A model generated the notes under the pieces. It was not told where the DNA came from. It ran no database searches and worked only from the letters and a program-made list of their open reading frames with translations. DNA of 5,430 bases from a virus (Duplodnaviria > Heunggongvirae > Uroviricota > Caudoviricetes). The stretch covers positions 1 through 5,430 of the IMG/VR virus record IMGVR_UViG_2778261420_000005. One strand, 5' to 3'. Numbering within the stretch: position 1 is the first letter of the stretch; each line of letters starts with the position of its first letter. Below, piece by piece: positions 1 through 5,388 of the stretch. Both the position numbers and the translations under genes were made by a program.

Positions 1-128
1 CCGTTTTCGTTCAGTGCTGAAATAATATTTGTTGAATAATAGTTCTCGCACAATCCCTCATTCGCCGGAATTTGTCGGAACCCTTCCAGATTAATAATAT
101 TCAAAATATTCCCCTTATTTAGTTTCTA

Positions 129-1226
129 TTAAGCAGCAGATAAAACCGCAAACTGCAGTACTGCCCGATCTACTGTCAGTGGCTCATTGGTTTGATATGC
201 TGGTACAAAGAAGGCTCTGTTAACTGCTACCGGCTCGCTCATCAGGAGTCCGGTTTGTAATTGCATGGTGTTAATGGTTATCGGTTCATGGGTGTTGCGC
301 CCTGACTGAACAAATTTTCTGTTAATTGTTAAAGGCCCCCTTGTCTGTTCCCCGGACTGAAGCAGCACTCTGTTGATTTGCAGAGCGGGCTTTGGCGTTT
401 CTGACGGAATTTCTGGTGGAATGACGGGCGCACCCTGAGAAGCCAGAGCCTCCGCGATTAACGCGCGTACAAATGCAGCATTGGCTATCTCATTACCGGA
501 TGCATCCGGTGGAGGTACTGGAGACATCGGGGTTCCCGTAAATTCAGGGCTGTCCAGCGATGCTTTTTTCTGCGTTTCATCCATCACTAACTTTACCGCC
601 TTCGAGGTCGCTGCAAGCGTTTCTGACTCACTGTCCGTGGCGCTGCTCAGCCGCACAATCCCGTTGTGTTCCGTACTCGCATCCTCTGCAGTATATTTCC
701 TGTCAGCGAGATCATATGCTGCTTTTACCGCCTTCGGGGTCGCTGCAAAATCTTCACTGCCGCTGTCCGTATCGCTGCTCAACTGCACCAACCCCTTTTG
801 GGTTGTGGTGGCATCCATTGTTCTTATGCTGTCGAAAATCTTCTTTACACTTTCTGCATATTCGGCTGCCGCTTCCGCATTCGCCCTGGCGTGAGACACC
901 AGTTCCTCAAGGTGGATTATCACTTCAGGCCTGGCATTCTGCTCAGTGAATTTCAGTAAAAAATCATTCAGCGCCCCAGGCTGAGAATCTTCGTAAACGG
1001 TGATGTCCCCTATATTCGATGGTGGATAACCATCAACCAACAGGGTGACGCTGTACTGTCCATACTCAACGTCCATACTGTAACGCCCGGTTTCATCCGA
1101 TCTGACTGAAGCTACAGTACTTGCCAGCACCGTGGTGCTGTGACGCCTTGCCGTCAGCTGAATGATGCCATTCTGTATTGGTTTACCTGCACCGTCTTTC
1201 AGCACACCTGAAATCTTTACTGCCAT
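129..1226 (-). CDS. Side tail fibre-like protein (prophage tail-fibre N-terminal domain, two phage tail-fibre repeats, P2 gpH/Stf-like conserved motif), 365 aa counted from the ATG
   Basis: ORF track gives 129..1232 with a GTG start (MNMAVK...), but that GTG overlaps the only good Shine-Dalgarno (GGGGAG, plus 1232..1237). I call the ATG at 1224..1226 (MAVKISGVLKDGAGKPIQNG...), 5 nt downstream of the SD. The N-terminus resembles the MAVKISGVLKDG... start of StfR-type prophage tail-fibre proteins. Two copies of a G(I/L)VxLSSxTDSxSE..AATxKAVK repeat lie at residues ~147-170 and ~191-214. The motif SPEFTGTPMSPVPPPDASGNEIANAAFVRALIA resembles the conserved SPxLTGTPTAP...QIATTAFV block of P2 gpH / lambda Stf-type fibres. 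Stop TAA = plus 'tta' at 129..131. Confidence 0.8.
   Translation of the reverse strand: MAVKISGVLKDGAGKPIQNGIIQLTARRHSTTVLASTVASVRSDETGRYSMDVEYGQYSVTLLVDGYPPSNIGDITVYEDSQPGALNDFLLKFTEQNARPEVIIHLEELVSHARANAEAAAEYAESVKKIFDSIRTMDATTTQKGLVQLSSDTDSGSEDFAATPKAVKAAYDLADRKYTAEDASTEHNGIVRLSSATDSESETLAATSKAVKLVMDETQKKASLDSPEFTGTPMSPVPPPDASGNEIANAAFVRALIAEALASQGAPVIPPEIPSETPKPALQINRVLLQSGEQTRGPLTINRKFVQSGRNTHEPITINTMQLQTGLLMSEPVAVNRAFFVPAYQTNEPLTVDRAVLQFAVLSAA
132..386 (-). repeat. Five degenerate tandem 51-bp (17-codon) in-frame repeats forming the C-terminal 85 residues of the tail-fibre protein
   Basis: Seen in the translation: ALQINRVLLQSGEQTRG / PLTINRKFVQSGRNTHE / PITINTMQLQTGLLMSE / PVAVNRAFFVPAYQTNE / PLTVDRAVLQFAVLSAA, consensus P-x-x-(I/V)-N-R-x-x-x-Q-x-G-x-x-x-x-E. 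At DNA level the plus strand shows a recurring 'ctgttaa(c/t)tg' / 'gtgttaatgg' motif every ~51 bp. The protein ends directly after the fifth unit. Confidence 0.5.
564..806 (-). repeat. Two tandem copies of a phage tail-fibre repeat inside the tail-fibre CDS (period 132 bp / 44 aa), visible at DNA level
   Basis: Seen in sequence: plus ~591..660 (ctttaccgccttcgaggtcgctgcaagcgtttctgactcactgtccgtggcgctgctcag...) and plus ~723..792 (ttttaccgccttcggggtcgctgcaaaatcttcactgccgctgtccgtatcgctgctcaa...) align at roughly three-quarters identity by eye. They encode ...LSSDTDSGSEDFAATPKAVKAAYD... and ...LSSATDSESETLAATSKAVKLVMD... Confidence 0.6.
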
Positions 1227-1241
1227 ATTCACTCCCCAAAC

Positions 1242-1265
1242 AAAAAAGGCACCATTTCTGGTGCC
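1242..1265 (-). terminator. Candidate rho-independent terminator (minus strand) 20 nt downstream of the J stop: GC-rich 6-bp stem, 6-nt loop, then T6
   Basis: Seen in sequence: plus 'ggcacc' (1248..1253), loop 'atttct', 'ggtgcc' (1260..1265), preceded on plus by 'aaaaaa' (1242..1247). Minus-strand RNA: GGCACC-AGAAAU-GGUGCC-UUUUUU, immediately followed by the GGGGAG Shine-Dalgarno and start of the next gene. The stem is short, so efficiency is uncertain. Confidence 0.5.
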
Positions 1266-1284
1266 CTTATCCAGGTTATAAAAT

Positions 1285-4200
1285 TCAACTGATACTGATA
1301 CCTGCTGTTGATTTCTTCATCACCACAACCAGTAAATCGCTGATACTTGCTGTGGGATACCAGCCATTTACCAGCCATGCTGACACAGAAAATTCCAGCG
1401 TCATGTGACCGTGACCGGCAGGCATATCAATAACGCCACTGTAAATCAGCGTATTATCCAGCGCAGTACGGTTATAAATTTCAGCACCGTTTTTCCGCAC
1501 TATCAGACGGCATGAGGAGTAAATATCAGTATGATTTCGCTCATGCTTAGCGCCGCTGAATGCCACCGCCGGAATAACAATCTGTCGGTCAAACGGCTGA
1601 TCGTCATAAATCCTGACGGTAATGGTCCCTGATGGCCACCGTTCCGGTGCACGGGAGTCCCGGGGGAAAGCTTTACCCACTGTTTTAACGAGATCGCCTT
1701 CAATCTGGTTCGCGGACAGTTTTCCCAGAACCCGGCAGTTCTTGTTAATCGTGACGTTGTTGAGCGTCCCGGCGTTCGCATTCACGTTACCGCTGATATC
1801 CGCATTTCTCGCCGTCAGTCGCCCGTCCGGTGTCAGGGAAAATGCCGGAGGATTGCCACCACTGGTAATGGTGGGGGCCGTCAGGCGTTTCAGGAACACG
1901 TCATTCATGAATATCTGATCACCCTGCGCCACAAACATCGGCGTTTCATTTCCGTTTGCCGGGTCAATAAACGCGATACGGTTAGCGGCAACCAGGAACT
2001 GGCTCAGTTTACCTTCCTCCGTGTCCTCCATGCTGAGGCCAATACCCGCGACATAATGTTTGCCGTCTTTGGTCTGCTCAATTTTGACGCCCCACATGGC
2101 ATTCCATTTATCGTTGGCATCTTTCCACTCTTTCGAAAACGCCTCCAGTTTGCTGGCGTTATCCTCCGTCAACTCGACTTTTTCCAGCAGCTCTTTACCG
2201 AGATGGGATTCGGTTATCTGGCCTTTGAAAAAATCCAGGTAACCTTCGGCATCATCGCTCGCCCGACCGACAGCCTCCACAAATGCCGATTTGCCAACGG
2301 TGTTCACACTGCGGATGTAAAAATAATAATCATGGCCCGGTTTGATATTGATACTGGCAGCTATCCAGTACAGCGCCGTGCCAAGATAGCGGGCTGTAGT
2401 TTCAACCTGCCTGATATCCGCAATCCGCTTTTCCGAGAACCAGAACTCAAACTGTACCGTCGGATCATAAACGGCAAGATGGGGCGTGGCGGTTATCTGA
2501 AAATAGCCCGGCGTCAGCTCAATCCGCGACGGCGCTGCCGGTGCGGCAATCCGGAACGATACCGATGCAGGATCGCCCTGCTGCCCCCAGGCATTTGCCG
2601 CCCGGACTGTCAGCCTGTAGCTTCCCAGCGCCAGCTGCCTGAAGCGGTATGTGGTTTCCGTCGTCCGGGCCGTGCTGACCAGCCGCTCACTGCCGTCATC
2701 CGCTGCCACGGTCAGGCGAAGCATAAAGCTCACACCCTTCACCACCTTCGGCGTATCCCAGCGCGCCAGCACCTGATATTCCCCGCTGTCTGCGGTGACT
2801 TCTGCGGTCAGGTGCTGCACCGCTGGCGGCGTGACACCATTCACCGTGCCACTCTGTTCGCCGTCAAAGTGCGCCCCGTTATCCACGATGGCCTCTTTTT
2901 CCGGCACATGCTGCACGGCGGTGATGGCATACGTGCCGTCGTCGTTCTCACGGATACTCACGCAGCGGAACAGTCGCTGGCGCAGCGTCGGCAGCTTCAG
3001 CCCCCATACGCTGTATTCAGCAACACCGTCAGGAACACGGCTCACTTTTACCTTCACGCCGTCGGTGACGGACTGAACCTCCACGCTGACCGGATTGCCA
3101 CTTCCGTCAACCAGGCTTATCAGCGTGGTACCGGAGGATGGCAGCGTGATTTCACGGTCGAGCGTCAGCGTCCGGGTCTGGCTGTTCACCGCCAGCACAC
3201 GACCACCGGTGCTGATACCGGCATAGTCATCATCACAGATTTCAATAACATCGCCCGGTACATGGCGAAGCCCTTCTGCGCCGACGCTGAAATCCACGGT
3301 CTGCGTTTCCAGCAGTTCTGTTTTAATCAGCCACAGCCCGGCGCGGTGTGCCTGCCCCCGACTGGTACAGCCAAAGGCATCCATCTTCGTGACGTTACGA
3401 CCGTAACGGGCAATGGCCTGCGTGTCCTCCACAAGCTCTGTCGCCGTCTCCCAGCCGTTATCCGGGTCAATCCAGTTCACCTCAACGGCATTATGGCGAT
3501 CCTTCAGGGCGCTGAAACTGTAGCGGAACGGCGCGCCATCATCCGGCATCACCACATTACTGCGGTTATAGGTCCATACCTTATCCGATGGCCGGTCCTG
3601 CACGAACGTCAGCGTCTGCCCGTTCCATACCGGCATACAGCGCATCGCCGAACAGAAATCGCTGAGCACATCCCACGCCTTGCGCTGTGTGGTCAGCCAG
3701 GCATTACAGGTGATGCGCGGCTCCGTGCTGCCAAAGCCGTCCGGCACCGACTGGTCGCAGTAGTGGCCGATAACATACAGCGCCCATTTATCCACATCTG
3801 CCGCACCAAGACGTTTCCCCATGCCGTAGCGCGGGTGGGTCAGCATATCCCACAGACACCAGGCCATGTTGTTGCTGTATGCCGGTTTAAACGTTCCGTC
3901 CCAGATACCGCTGTATTGCCGCGTCTGCGGGTTATAATTCGACGGCACCTGCAGAATACGCCCGCGCAGATGATAATTACGGCTCACCTGCTGGCTGCCG
4001 AACTGCTCCGAATCCACCTGTACGCCGACCAGTGCCGTGTTCGGGTAGCACTGTTTCACATCGATGATTTCGGTGTATGACGACCAGAGCGTTTTGTTCT
4101 GCAGCTGGTCTGTGGTGCTGTCCGGCGTCATCCTGCGCATCCGGATATTGAACGGGCGCGGAGGCAGGTTATCCACCACCACCGAGGCCAGATACTGCGA

Positions 4201-4680
4201 GGTGGTTTTGCCCTTAATGGTGATGTCTTTTTCCGTCACCCAGCCACCGTTACGCTGTATCTGAACCAGCAGGCGAACTTCCGACGGATTCCTGTCTCCC
4301 TTTGAGGTGGTTTCCACCAGTGCCTGTACACCGAAGGTAAAGCGCAGACGGTCGATGTTTGCCGACGTGATGGTGCGGGTGATCGGCGTGTCATATTTCA
4401 CTTCCGTACCCAGCACCGTCTCGGAGCCGGAGGATTCAAACCCCTCCGGCGGAGTCTGCTCCTGCTCACCTGCCCGGAACACCACCGTGACACCGGAGAT
4501 GTTGGTATTCCCCTCACTGTCCAGCACCGGCGTACTGTTCAGCAGCACGCTTTTTAAGCCATCCACCGGACCTTCAATCGGCCCTTCGCTGATGGCATCA
4601 ATCACACTCAGCAACTGCGTGGACTTCAGGTTGTCCTTCGCTTCGCGCGGGGTATGCCCCTTACTGCTGCCTTTACCCAT
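1285..4680 (-). CDS. J: Host specificity protein J / tip attachment protein (central tail fibre), lambda gpJ family, 1131 aa
   Basis: ORF track 1285..4680 (-). Start ATG (reverse complement of 'cat' at 4678..4680) preceded by GGAG/GAGGA. N-terminus [38 protein letters not shown]... and most of the length match my recollection of lambda gpJ (1132 aa) nearly residue for residue. The last ~155 residues are homologous but clearly divergent. Stop is TGA (plus 'tca' 1285..1287). Confidence 0.95.
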
Positions 4681-4740: not shown

Positions 4741-5388
4741 TCAGCGACCAATCACCACAACCTGACCACCGTCCCCTTCGTCTGCCGTGCTGATCTCCTG
4801 AGAAACCACCCGCGACCCCACACGCATTTCACCGTACAGAACAGGCAAAACATTGCCCTGAGCAACCATGTTATCCAGTGAGGAGAAATAGGTGTTCTGT
4901 TTGCCGTTATCTGTACTGGCTGCCGTGGGCGTCCTGGCTTTCGGTGCCAGCATCTGCGCCACACCGCCCAGGATCATACTGGCCCCTGCCGCATACATGC
5001 CCGATACAGCCGCGGCACCCAGCCAGCCCACAGGGTTCCACCATGCCACCGCAATCAGCGCCGCCCCCAGCACCACCTGAAATACACCGCCACTTTTAGC
5101 TCCCGCCAGACGCGGCACGATATGGATCACGGCACCATTTGCCAGCGGCTCATTAAGACGGGCAGATAATTCGGTTTCACCTGCATCACGCCCGGCAATG
5201 CGCACCTGATACCAGCCGTCATTCAGCTTCTGACGAAACGCCGGGAGCTGTGTGGCCAGCGCCCGGATGGCTTCGGCCCCCGTTTTCACACGAAGGTCGA
5301 TGCGGCGGCCAAATCGTTGCAAATCCCCGTAAAGGCAGATGCGTGCCATGCCCGGTGACGCCAGAGGGAGTGTGTGCGTCGCTGCCAT
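4741..5388 (-). CDS. I: Tail tip assembly protein I (lambda gpI family), 215 aa
   Basis: ORF track 4741..5388 (-), ATG = reverse complement of 'cat' at 5386..5388. Protein (MAATHTLPLASPGMARICLYGDLQRFGRRIDLRVKTGAEAIRALATQLPAFRQKL...YFSSLDNMVAQGNVLPVLYGEMRVGSRVVSQEISTADEGDGGQVVVIGR) matches my recollection of lambda gpI (about 223 aa), including a central Gly/Ala-rich hydrophobic segment. Synteny K-I-J supports it. Confidence 0.88.
   Translation of the reverse strand: MAATHTLPLASPGMARICLYGDLQRFGRRIDLRVKTGAEAIRALATQLPAFRQKLNDGWYQVRIAGRDAGETELSARLNEPLANGAVIHIVPRLAGAKSGGVFQVVLGAALIAVAWWNPVGWLGAAAVSGMYAAGASMILGGVAQMLAPKARTPTAASTDNGKQNTYFSSLDNMVAQGNVLPVLYGEMRVGSRVVSQEISTADEGDGGQVVVIGR

What the first reader, a model, noticed from the sequence alone, without database searches (positions are those of the whole stretch)
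129..1226. Short tail-fibre protein ending in five tandem 17-residue repeats instead of a typical receptor-binding domain
The protein begins like StfR-type side tail fibres (conserved N-terminal domain, fibre repeats, the P2-gpH-like ...IANAAFVRALIA block). Where those proteins usually continue for several hundred residues into a receptor-binding region, this one ends after only ~105 more residues. Those residues are a Pro-rich linker plus five degenerate 17-aa repeats (PxTINRxxxQSGxxxxE-like), an arrangement I do not recognise from characterised fibres. The gene is followed by an AT-rich segment rather than an obvious tail-fibre assembly/chaperone gene. It could be a novel compact receptor-binding tip, a recombinational truncation of a longer fibre gene, or a mosaic junction.
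Basis: partly seen in the sequence, partly recalled or inferred. Interest (0 to 1): 0.6.

Follow-up and report, generated by a model that had tools for sequence, protein, structure and literature searches.

The report
Portable repeat tail docking a lectin-like protein
The short prophage tail-fibre gene is complete, and its five 17-residue repeats form a rare, portable C-terminal module that is always encoded with a separate lectin-like protein, so they most likely hold that protein on the fibre.

Summary
Window 1226..129 (minus strand) encodes a 365-aa lambda-Stf-type fibre protein that ends in five 17-aa repeats (period 17 only; z=14 against shuffles).

The "AT-rich segment" downstream is a window-edge artefact. 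It is the start (TTG at 104) of a 349-aa gene. In the full locus a 369-aa fibre gene and a Tfa chaperone gene follow.

The repeat tail is not a truncation scar. The identical protein is on record on 107 contigs. The same tail (3-7 units, consensus P-L-x-[IV]-N-R-x-x-L-Q-S-[GA]-x-x-[TS]-x-E) sits at the extreme C-terminus of three unrelated anchor families: lambda Stf N-domain, P2 tail-collar N-domain and the Mu gp48 baseplate protein.

All 50 partner-selected gene clusters carry a repeat tail. All 20 assessable tails found without reference to the partner have the partner gene nearby.

The partner folds confidently (pLDDT 91) as a two-domain beta protein. Its large domain is a ConA-like lectin/glucanase jelly-roll. 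It is under purifying selection. Its closest structural matches are tail-cluster proteins of siphophages.

Best reading (confidence 0.6): the repeats are a docking adaptor that mounts a separately encoded, probably glycan-binding, receptor-binding protein. Physical binding is inferred, not shown. I found no description of either family.

The parts
129..1226 (-). Complete 365-aa side-tail-fibre proximal protein (stop codon 131-129)
   Evidence: ORF and RBS. Pfam PF08400 and PF03406. Identical protein on 107 contigs.
840..1226 (-). Anchor: lambda Stf-type N-terminal collar domain (aa 1-129)
   Evidence: PF08400 E 1e-52. Residues 1-93 match 9e7m at E 3e-39. In Ur-lambda this domain docks on the gpV-gpM junction (PMC12617516).
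561..815 (-). Shaft: two Phage_fiber_2 repeats (about aa 138-222)
   Evidence: PF03406, two stretches. Match to Mu S structures 5yvq and 8ju3.
441..557 (-). Conserved hinge block LDSPEFTGTP...IANAAFVRALIAEAL (aa 224-262), which is the recombination breakpoint
   Evidence: Similarity to P2-like prophage loci L004 and L007 begins here, at L001 nt 12864. The block is also present in P0002, P0005 and P0007.
387..440 (-). Pro-rich linker (aa 263-280)
   Evidence: Read directly from the sequence.
132..386 (-). Five 17-aa repeat units (aa 281-365). The last one is a distinct C-terminal cap (...LQFAVLSAA).
   Evidence: Periodicity and z=14. Unit consensus from 49 distinct units. Only 6 true matching cluster representatives among 1.84 billion.
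111..116 (-). Ribosome-binding site (AAGGGG) of the partner gene
   Evidence: Sequence. RefSeq CDS start in L001.
1..104 (-). First 34 codons (TTG start) of the 349-aa partner gene, cut off by the window edge
   Evidence: phrog_8291 matched end to end.
1285..4680 (-). gpJ tail-tip / central fibre gene (1131 aa), context only
   Evidence: Pfam J domains.
1245..1268 (-). Terminator-like hairpin (10-bp stem plus T-run) between J and the fibre gene, context only

Best explanation
The 365-aa protein is the complete proximal piece of a multi-gene side tail fibre. Its N-terminal collar domain fixes it to the tail, as in Ur-lambda; this step rests on homology. A short shaft and the conserved hinge lead to a Pro-rich linker and five 17-aa units. 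These units form a portable docking adaptor. They are probably disordered on their own and become ordered, most likely as short beta-strands, when they bind the protein encoded 24 nt downstream; this step is inferred. That 349-aa partner has two beta domains, the larger being a ConA-like lectin/glucanase jelly-roll. It is proposed to be the distal, glycan-recognising receptor-binding subunit, or possibly a glycan-cleaving one; this step is inferred from the fold. Anchor, tail, the two partner domains and the downstream fibre+Tfa are exchanged as separate recombination blocks. That lets the same tip be mounted on siphovirus fibres, myovirus fibres, or directly on a baseplate wedge protein.
Confidence: 0.6

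Rival explanations
1. The repeats themselves form the fibre tip (for example a trimeric beta-spiral or beta-helix that binds the receptor). The 349-aa protein is their dedicated assembly chaperone, playing the Tfa or gp38(T4) role, and may or may not stay bound.
For: Fibre genes are typically followed by their chaperone (own knowledge). The two genes are strictly adjacent and co-occur. The tail does not fold as a monomer. The unit has a Pro/Gly-punctuated alternating hydrophobic pattern like fibre shaft repeats.
Against: The partner has no Caudo_TAP or other chaperone signature. It is a 350-aa two-domain lectin-like protein whose structural relatives are virion proteins. The tail is most often fused to Mu gp48, a wedge protein present as one copy per wedge (own knowledge of Mu, T6SS and T4 baseplates), where a homotrimeric tip could not form. 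In L050 a fibre+Tfa separates the tail from the partner.
Confidence: 0.2
2. The repeats dock the N-terminal adaptor domain of the downstream short fibre (the 369-aa protein, with its Tfa) and not the 349-aa protein. The 349-aa protein would then be an accessory.
For: In the window's own locus type and in Mu-like loci, a 369-aa or 267-aa fibre with a distinct N-terminal domain plus Tfa lies in the same cluster. In L050 it directly follows the gp48-repeat gene.
Against: That fibre is absent from the P2-like, L008, L010, L012 and L039-type clusters, which still keep tail plus partner. It is therefore not the constant companion of the tail.
Confidence: 0.1
3. The gene is a non-functional truncated remnant of a longer Stf gene, and the repeats are a meaningless recombination scar in a decaying prophage.
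For: Only 8 of 5,426 complete E. coli genomes carry the full gene. The TD225-C4 prophage has a broken tape-measure gene, and L002 and L003 carry deletions. Tail dN/dS is 0.54, based on few substitutions.
Against: The identical protein is on 107 contigs. The tail motif is conserved across 49 distinct units and three anchor families, in E. coli, E. albertii and Raoultella. It is always terminal and always paired with a partner under purifying selection.
Confidence: 0.03

Closest known systems
Lambda Stf / Tfa side tail fibre (Ur-lambda; PDB 9e7m)
   Same: N-terminal collar domain (E 3e-39), Phage_fiber_2 shaft repeats, position just downstream of J, and a Tfa gene in the cluster.
   Different: Lambda Stf is one long polypeptide ending in a gp37-like receptor-binding domain. 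Here the polypeptide stops after the hinge with a 17-aa repeat tail, and the distal functions are on separate genes.
T2/T6/S16-type gp37 fibre plus gp38 adhesin (own knowledge; PMC3157838 listed)
   Same: A separately encoded protein, encoded immediately after the fibre gene, is mounted on the fibre's C-terminal end and determines host recognition. This is the closest functional analogy.
   Different: No sequence or fold relation: gp38 has glycine-rich motifs in a polyglycine sandwich, while the partner is a ConA-like jelly-roll plus a second beta domain. The docking element here is a tandem 17-aa repeat, and it also works on a baseplate wedge protein.
T4 long tail fibre gp34-gp35-gp36-gp37 (own knowledge)
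   Same: A fibre built from several gene products joined end to end. The gene order proximal piece, connector of about 350 aa, distal piece, chaperone resembles Stf-N(365), 349, 369, Tfa in the window's locus.
   Different: No homology to gp35 or gp36 was detected. In most contexts the 349-aa protein is terminal and not followed by a distal fibre, so a connector role is not general.
Branched or adaptor-based RBP systems (Ackermannviridae TSP complex, G7C gp63.1/gp66, Klebsiella dual-RBP phages; PMC11414711 and PMC13579863 listed)
   Same: A conserved docking module allows exchangeable receptor-binding proteins to be plugged onto a tail-attached anchor.
   Different: Those systems use folded N-terminal adaptor domains on tailspikes. 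Here the adaptor is a C-terminal tandem repeat on the anchor, and the cargo is a lectin-like monomer-sized protein.
Lactococcal baseplates BppU-BppA-BppL (TP901-1, Tuc2009) and CBM-decorated 'evolved' Dit/Tal proteins (own knowledge)
   Same: Separately encoded or inserted beta-sandwich carbohydrate-binding modules hang from a tail-attached scaffold and mediate saccharide recognition.
   Different: Different phage lineage and host group, and no repeat tail.
Triple beta-spiral / beta-helix fibre shaft repeats (adenovirus fibre, reovirus sigma1; own knowledge)
   Same: Repeats of about 15-20 aa with a conserved Pro/Gly and alternating hydrophobic residues.
   Different: Those repeats are obligate homotrimers inside long shafts. 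Here the repeats are terminal, few, variable in number, and also fused to a protein expected to be single-copy per wedge. The monomer AF2 model was uninformative.

Membership tests
Lambda Stf-type side tail fibre | N-terminal collar/attachment domain (PF08400; 9e7m fold) | tested here: met
   PF08400 E 1e-52. 9e7m E 3e-39 over residues 1-93.
Lambda Stf-type side tail fibre | Phage_fiber_2 shaft repeats and the conserved hinge block | tested here: met
   PF03406, two stretches. The hinge is shared with P2-like proteins.
Lambda Stf-type side tail fibre | C-terminal gp37-like receptor-binding region on the same polypeptide, folded by the adjacent Tfa | tested here: not met
   The protein ends at residue 365 with the repeats. 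The C-terminal 113 aa match no PHROG. The gp37-like tip is on the separate 369-aa protein.
T2-type gp37/gp38 fibre-adhesin pair | Adhesin gene immediately downstream of the fibre gene | tested here: met
   24-nt gap in the window's locus, 12-32 nt in 47 of 50 loci.
T2-type gp37/gp38 fibre-adhesin pair | gp38 sequence or fold (glycine-rich motif sandwich) | tested here: not met
   No Pfam or NCBIfam hit. The fold is a ConA-like jelly-roll.
T2-type gp37/gp38 fibre-adhesin pair | Physical attachment of the adhesin to the fibre tip in the virion | not testable with these tools
   Needs multimer modelling, pull-down or cryo-EM.
Caudo_TAP tail-fibre assembly chaperones (for the 349-aa partner) | PF02413 domain, about 175-200 aa | tested here: not met
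   No Pfam hit for the partner. The true Tfa (176 aa, PF02413 E 4e-20) is a different gene in the cluster.
ConA-like lectin/glucanase superfamily (for the partner's large domain) | Beta-jelly-roll fold similarity | tested here: met
ConA-like lectin/glucanase superfamily (for the partner's large domain) | Identifiable sugar-binding or catalytic residues | not tested
   The invariant residues are listed but were not mapped onto known sites.
Trimeric beta-spiral / beta-helix fibre repeats (for the 17-aa units) | Confident repetitive beta-solenoid or beta-spiral structure | tested here: inconclusive
   Monomer AF2 gave pLDDT 35. A trimer could not be modelled.

The most novel reading that the evidence does not exclude
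The 17-aa tandem repeat is a universal, copy-number-tunable 'plug'. It recruits one or several copies of a lectin-like receptor-binding protein onto any tail-attached scaffold: trimeric siphovirus fibres, myovirus fibres, or a single-copy baseplate wedge protein. This would be a previously unrecognised way for temperate enterobacterial phages to swap or multiply host-recognition tips, and a ready-made handle for engineering phage host range.
Probability: 0.25. Interest if true: 0.8.

Novelty: new variant of a known kind. Interest (0 to 1): 0.62.

Why it matters
Host range in tailed phages is set by receptor-binding proteins, and modular ways of mounting them are wanted for phage engineering. 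This is a compact tag of about 50-120 aa, paired with a cognate 350-aa protein, that evolution has already moved between lambda-like, P2-like and Mu-like tails. It is mostly found in human-derived E. coli, including ETEC strain B7A. If the docking is real, it is a natural plug-and-socket system that works independently of the anchor's oligomeric state. It would also explain many fibre and baseplate genes that are currently annotated as truncated or pseudogenes; RefSeq marks the B7A gp48 fusion as 'missing C-terminus'. Finally, it assigns a likely role to phrog_8291, a family of unknown function.

Tried and rejected
- Stop-codon readthrough or fusion of fibre and partner. The two are in the same frame in L001 and L004 but separated by tandem TAA TAG. 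They are in different frames in L006 (coordinates). Rejected.
- Partner N-terminal strand (MNIINLEGFRQ) as a mimic of a repeat unit. The unit HMM scores 0 of 25 partners positively in the first 25 residues. Rejected.
- DNA-level tandem duplication. TRF finds nothing, and unit DNA identity is 29-57%. The repeats are old and diverged, although some other loci have recent identical units (L010, L033).
- Sequence homologues in phage genomes and plasmids. tblastn of the tail and of the partner against 50,697 phage records found no match. A related repeat tail (that of P0005) found no match against plasmids.
- The search for homologous proteins with the tail alone found nothing, not even a self-hit. 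A tail profile returned only fragments. The exhaustive HMMER search was needed.
A custom DNA pattern replaced it.
- Context of P0005 was not on record.
- The AFDB50 fold library was unavailable.
- Literature searches found no description of the module.
- Simple tail-partner co-variation. Near-identical partners pair with tails only about 36% identical (L001 versus L006), so no clean co-evolution signal beyond broad co-divergence.

Full report
**1. What is in the window**

The 5,430-nt window is a lambdoid tail module on the minus strand. It holds an I-like gene (4741-5388), a gpJ gene of 1131 aa with all J domains (1285-4680), and the gene in question at 1226-129.

That gene has a good RBS and an ATG start, and it encodes 365 aa.

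- Pfam finds the prophage tail-fibre N-terminal domain (PF08400, residues 1-129, E 1e-52) and two Phage_fiber_2 repeats.
- Residues 1-93 match the solved Ur-lambda Stf collar domain (9e7m, E 3e-39), and residues 174-225 match Mu fibre protein S.
- In Ur-lambda, the collar domain docks on the gpV-gpM junction. Three collar domains feed one trimeric side fibre through flexible linkers (PMC12617516).

After the conserved hinge (LDSPEFTGTP...IANAAFVRALIAEAL, aa 224-262) come a Pro-rich linker (263-280) and five 17-aa units (281-365).

The periodicity is statistically solid:

- Among periods 5-35, only 17 and its multiple 34 give a positive BLOSUM autocorrelation.
- The sum-of-pairs score is 213 against -137 +/- 25 in 20,000 shuffles (z=14).
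- The units share only 29-57% DNA identity, and TRF reports nothing. The repeat is therefore old and maintained at the protein level.

**2. The 'AT-rich segment' is a gene**

Twenty-four nucleotides after the stop codon, an AAGGGG RBS (116-111) precedes a TTG at 104. This opens an ORF (MNIINLEGFRQIPANEGLCENYY...) that runs off the window.

The window's 1-1420 region is 100% identical to E. coli TD225-C4. There the order is J, the 365-aa gene, a 349-aa 'hypothetical protein', a 369-aa 'phage tail protein', a Tfa chaperone (PF02413), a DUF4376 remnant, and then tRNA-Ser and hyaA.

The lack of a downstream fibre or chaperone gene was therefore a window-edge artefact. There is no convincing terminator between the fibre stop and the TTG, so the genes are probably co-transcribed.

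**3. How rare is it?**

- The N-terminal part of the gene has relatives in 4,714 of 5,426 complete E. coli genomes, but only 8 carry the full gene.
- The C-terminal 113 aa match no PHROG and no deposited phage genome.
- An exhaustive HMMER search of 1.84 billion cluster representatives returned just 7 hits, 6 of them genuine.
- The identical 365-aa protein is nevertheless on 107 contigs, always under generic names. It is a stable allele and not a one-off truncation.

**4. The tail is a portable module on unrelated anchors**

The genuine hits and the loci I fetched show the same kind of tail, always at the extreme C-terminus, on three anchor families:

- lambda Stf N-domains (PF08400);
- a 285-aa P2-type tail-collar fibre N-domain (PF12571), present as a second short fibre gene after a complete fibre+Tfa in a P2-like myovirus prophage of E. 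coli and E. albertii;
- Mu gp48 baseplate proteins (PF10076), which are the most common carriers. One example is ETEC B7A, where RefSeq marks the gene as a pseudogene 'missing C-terminus'.

Unit number ranges from 3 to 7. It differs even between near-identical prophages (L031 has 5, L032 has 4).

From 49 distinct units the consensus is P-L-x-[IV]-N-R-x-x-L-Q-S-[GA]-x-x-[TS]-x-E. The final unit is usually a distinct hydrophobic cap (L-x-F-A-[VF]-[VL]-[ST]..).

**5. The tail is always paired with one protein family**

The 349-aa downstream protein matches phrog_8291 (unknown function) end to end. It has no Pfam or NCBIfam hit and no match in phage genomes. It belongs to a small family of 28 clusters at 41-96% identity. 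Almost all are from E. coli, and one is from Raoultella.

Partner-first test:

- I fetched 50 partner-encoding loci with upstream DNA from E. coli genomes, assemblies, IMG/VR and metagenomes.
- In 47, a repeat tail ends 12-32 nt before the partner.
- In the other three, the cluster still has a gp48 with seven units, but a short fibre+Tfa lies between it and the partner.

Tail-first test:

- I scanned IMG/VR with a partner-independent DNA pattern: three P-phi-x-[IVM]-N motifs spaced 17 codons apart.
- This gave 33 hits, of which 23 are true tails by a unit HMM.
- All 20 with enough flanking DNA encode a partner (E <= 1e-55). The remaining 3 lie at contig ends.

In the data available, the two components therefore never occur apart.

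**6. Mosaic structure**

DNA comparison gives sharp block boundaries.

- The Mu-like B7A locus is 98.4% identical to the window's locus type, starting one base before the partner's start codon and running through the partner, the 369-aa fibre and Tfa. Its tail is only about 36% identical.
- The P2-like loci share similarity from the hinge (aa 224) to the partner's stop and no further.
- Inside the partner there is another breakpoint near codon 185-190: dS is 0.05 for the N-domain and 0.80 for the C-domain between L001 and L004. The two domains shuffle independently across the family.

The exchangeable blocks are thus anchor | tail | partner N-domain | partner C-domain | downstream fibre+Tfa.

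**7. What the partner looks like**

- AF2 with the family alignment gives a confident model: pLDDT 91.3, pTM 0.90, all-beta, two domains.
- Foldseek against all PDB chains finds only single-domain lectin-type matches and no solved two-domain relative.
- Against predicted viral structures, the whole protein matches (TM 0.6-0.66, 12-16% identity) proteins of about 350 aa in siphophages. These include Achromobacter AchV4 ('virion structural protein'), three paralogues in Serratia JS26, Providencia Kokobel1 and Stilesk, and Cronobacter JC01.
- In AchV4, several 35-37 kDa proteins flanking the tail-fibre gene were detected in virions by LC-MS/MS (PMC7996906).
- The partner is under purifying selection, with dN/dS about 0.2.

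**8. What the tail looks like**

As a monomer with a shallow alignment, AF2 gives pLDDT 35. That fits a segment which orders only on binding or oligomerisation, but it does not discriminate between models.

Mu gp48-type proteins are, to my knowledge, present as one copy per baseplate wedge (TssG/gp7-like). An obligate homotrimeric fibre repeat is therefore hard to reconcile with the commonest carrier.

**9. Interpretation**

The best-supported model (confidence about 0.6) has three parts.

- The 17-aa repeats are a docking adaptor.
- The 349-aa lectin-like protein is the cargo, most likely a glycan-recognising receptor-binding tip.
- The 365-aa protein is therefore a complete proximal fibre piece.

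Several points support a tip role over a connector role for the partner. It is the last fibre-related gene in the P2-like, Raoultella, L010 and L039-type contexts. It has a carbohydrate-recognition fold. Its structural relatives are virion-associated.

In the window's own locus type, the partner + 369-aa fibre + Tfa block looks imported from a Mu-like prophage. Whether the 369-aa fibre also assembles on the lambdoid tail is open.

Shown: the anatomy, the repeat, its portability, the two-way co-occurrence, the mosaic boundaries, the partner fold and the selection regime.

Inferred: physical docking, stoichiometry, glycan binding, and presence in virions.

**10. Rivals**

- Partner as a dedicated chaperone for a self-sufficient repeat tip: 0.2.
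- Repeats docking the 369-aa fibre instead of the partner: 0.1.
- Non-functional truncation scar: 0.03.

The arguments for and against each are in the Rival explanations section.

**11. Novelty**

The concept of a separately encoded tip on a fibre, or of adaptor-mounted RBPs, is known. Examples are T2 gp37/gp38, the T4 multi-protein fibre, branched tailspike systems and lactococcal Bpp proteins.

However, the docking element, the partner family and their use across three tail architectures are not described in any library or paper I could search. I rate it a new variant of a known kind, with interest about 0.6.

**12. Caveats**

- The module is confined to Escherichia/Shigella, plus one Raoultella example.
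- No isolated phage carries it.
- The TD225-C4 prophage has a broken tape-measure gene, and deletion derivatives exist.
- All mechanism claims rest on comparative genomics and monomer models.

Noticed in passing
window 1245-1268 (minus strand): A strong terminator-like hairpin (10-bp stem, 5 G-C pairs, T-run) sits between the J stop (1285) and the fibre start (1226), just upstream of the fibre RBS.
   Followed up: no
window 1227-1284; compare H12-H25 and L010 4277-4876: There is no lom (Ail/Lom) gene between J and the fibre gene here, whereas most related E. coli prophages and Stx phages have one at that position.
   Followed up: no
L001 14397-15506 (outside the window): The 369-aa fibre combines a distinct N-terminal domain of about 110 aa (MHRIDTPTAVKDKFGPGKNGF...; matches phrog_2617 'short tail fiber' N-terminus; no Pfam hit) with a gp37-like tip that is homologous to the tip of the 566-aa P2-like fibre in L004. 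What its N-domain attaches to on a lambdoid tail is unclear.
   Followed up: partly
L006 5018-5977 (ETEC B7A) and L029, L038, L050: gp48-borne tails contain an internal cap-like unit (PLAINHTGVHFAVVPALTGK) followed by more units. It looks as if a complete [units+cap] block was duplicated in tandem. RefSeq annotates this gene as a pseudogene 'missing C-terminus'.
   Followed up: partly
L008 5794-5988 and L009: Next to the most divergent partner (41% identity), the tail-like sequence (...PLVIKHAVVSVGHENVLPVLTGRTWLTYLIQN) is on a free-standing 64-aa ORF. This ORF follows a 257-aa Stf-N protein with an unrelated C-terminus, in a prophage whose J is truncated (939 aa).
   Followed up: no
L054 5780-5896 and L083 2832-2948 (IMG/VR metagenome contigs): An unrelated 17-aa tandem repeat (PISVNGITTAAYNRSxA, at least 5 copies) lies near the C-terminus of 421-432-aa ORFs. 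It does not match the unit HMM and no partner is nearby.
   Followed up: no
L001 4758-6679; L002 8195-9160; L003 8195-8970: There are signs of prophage decay. The tape-measure gene is truncated in TD225-C4. The fibre gene has an internal rearrangement in strain cS51a. Strain E400634 has a deletion running from mid-fibre to mid-partner.
   Followed up: partly
window about 2056-4080 (plus strand): A 674-aa ORF lies antisense to J. It is most likely a by-product of J's high-GC codon usage and not a gene.
   Followed up: no
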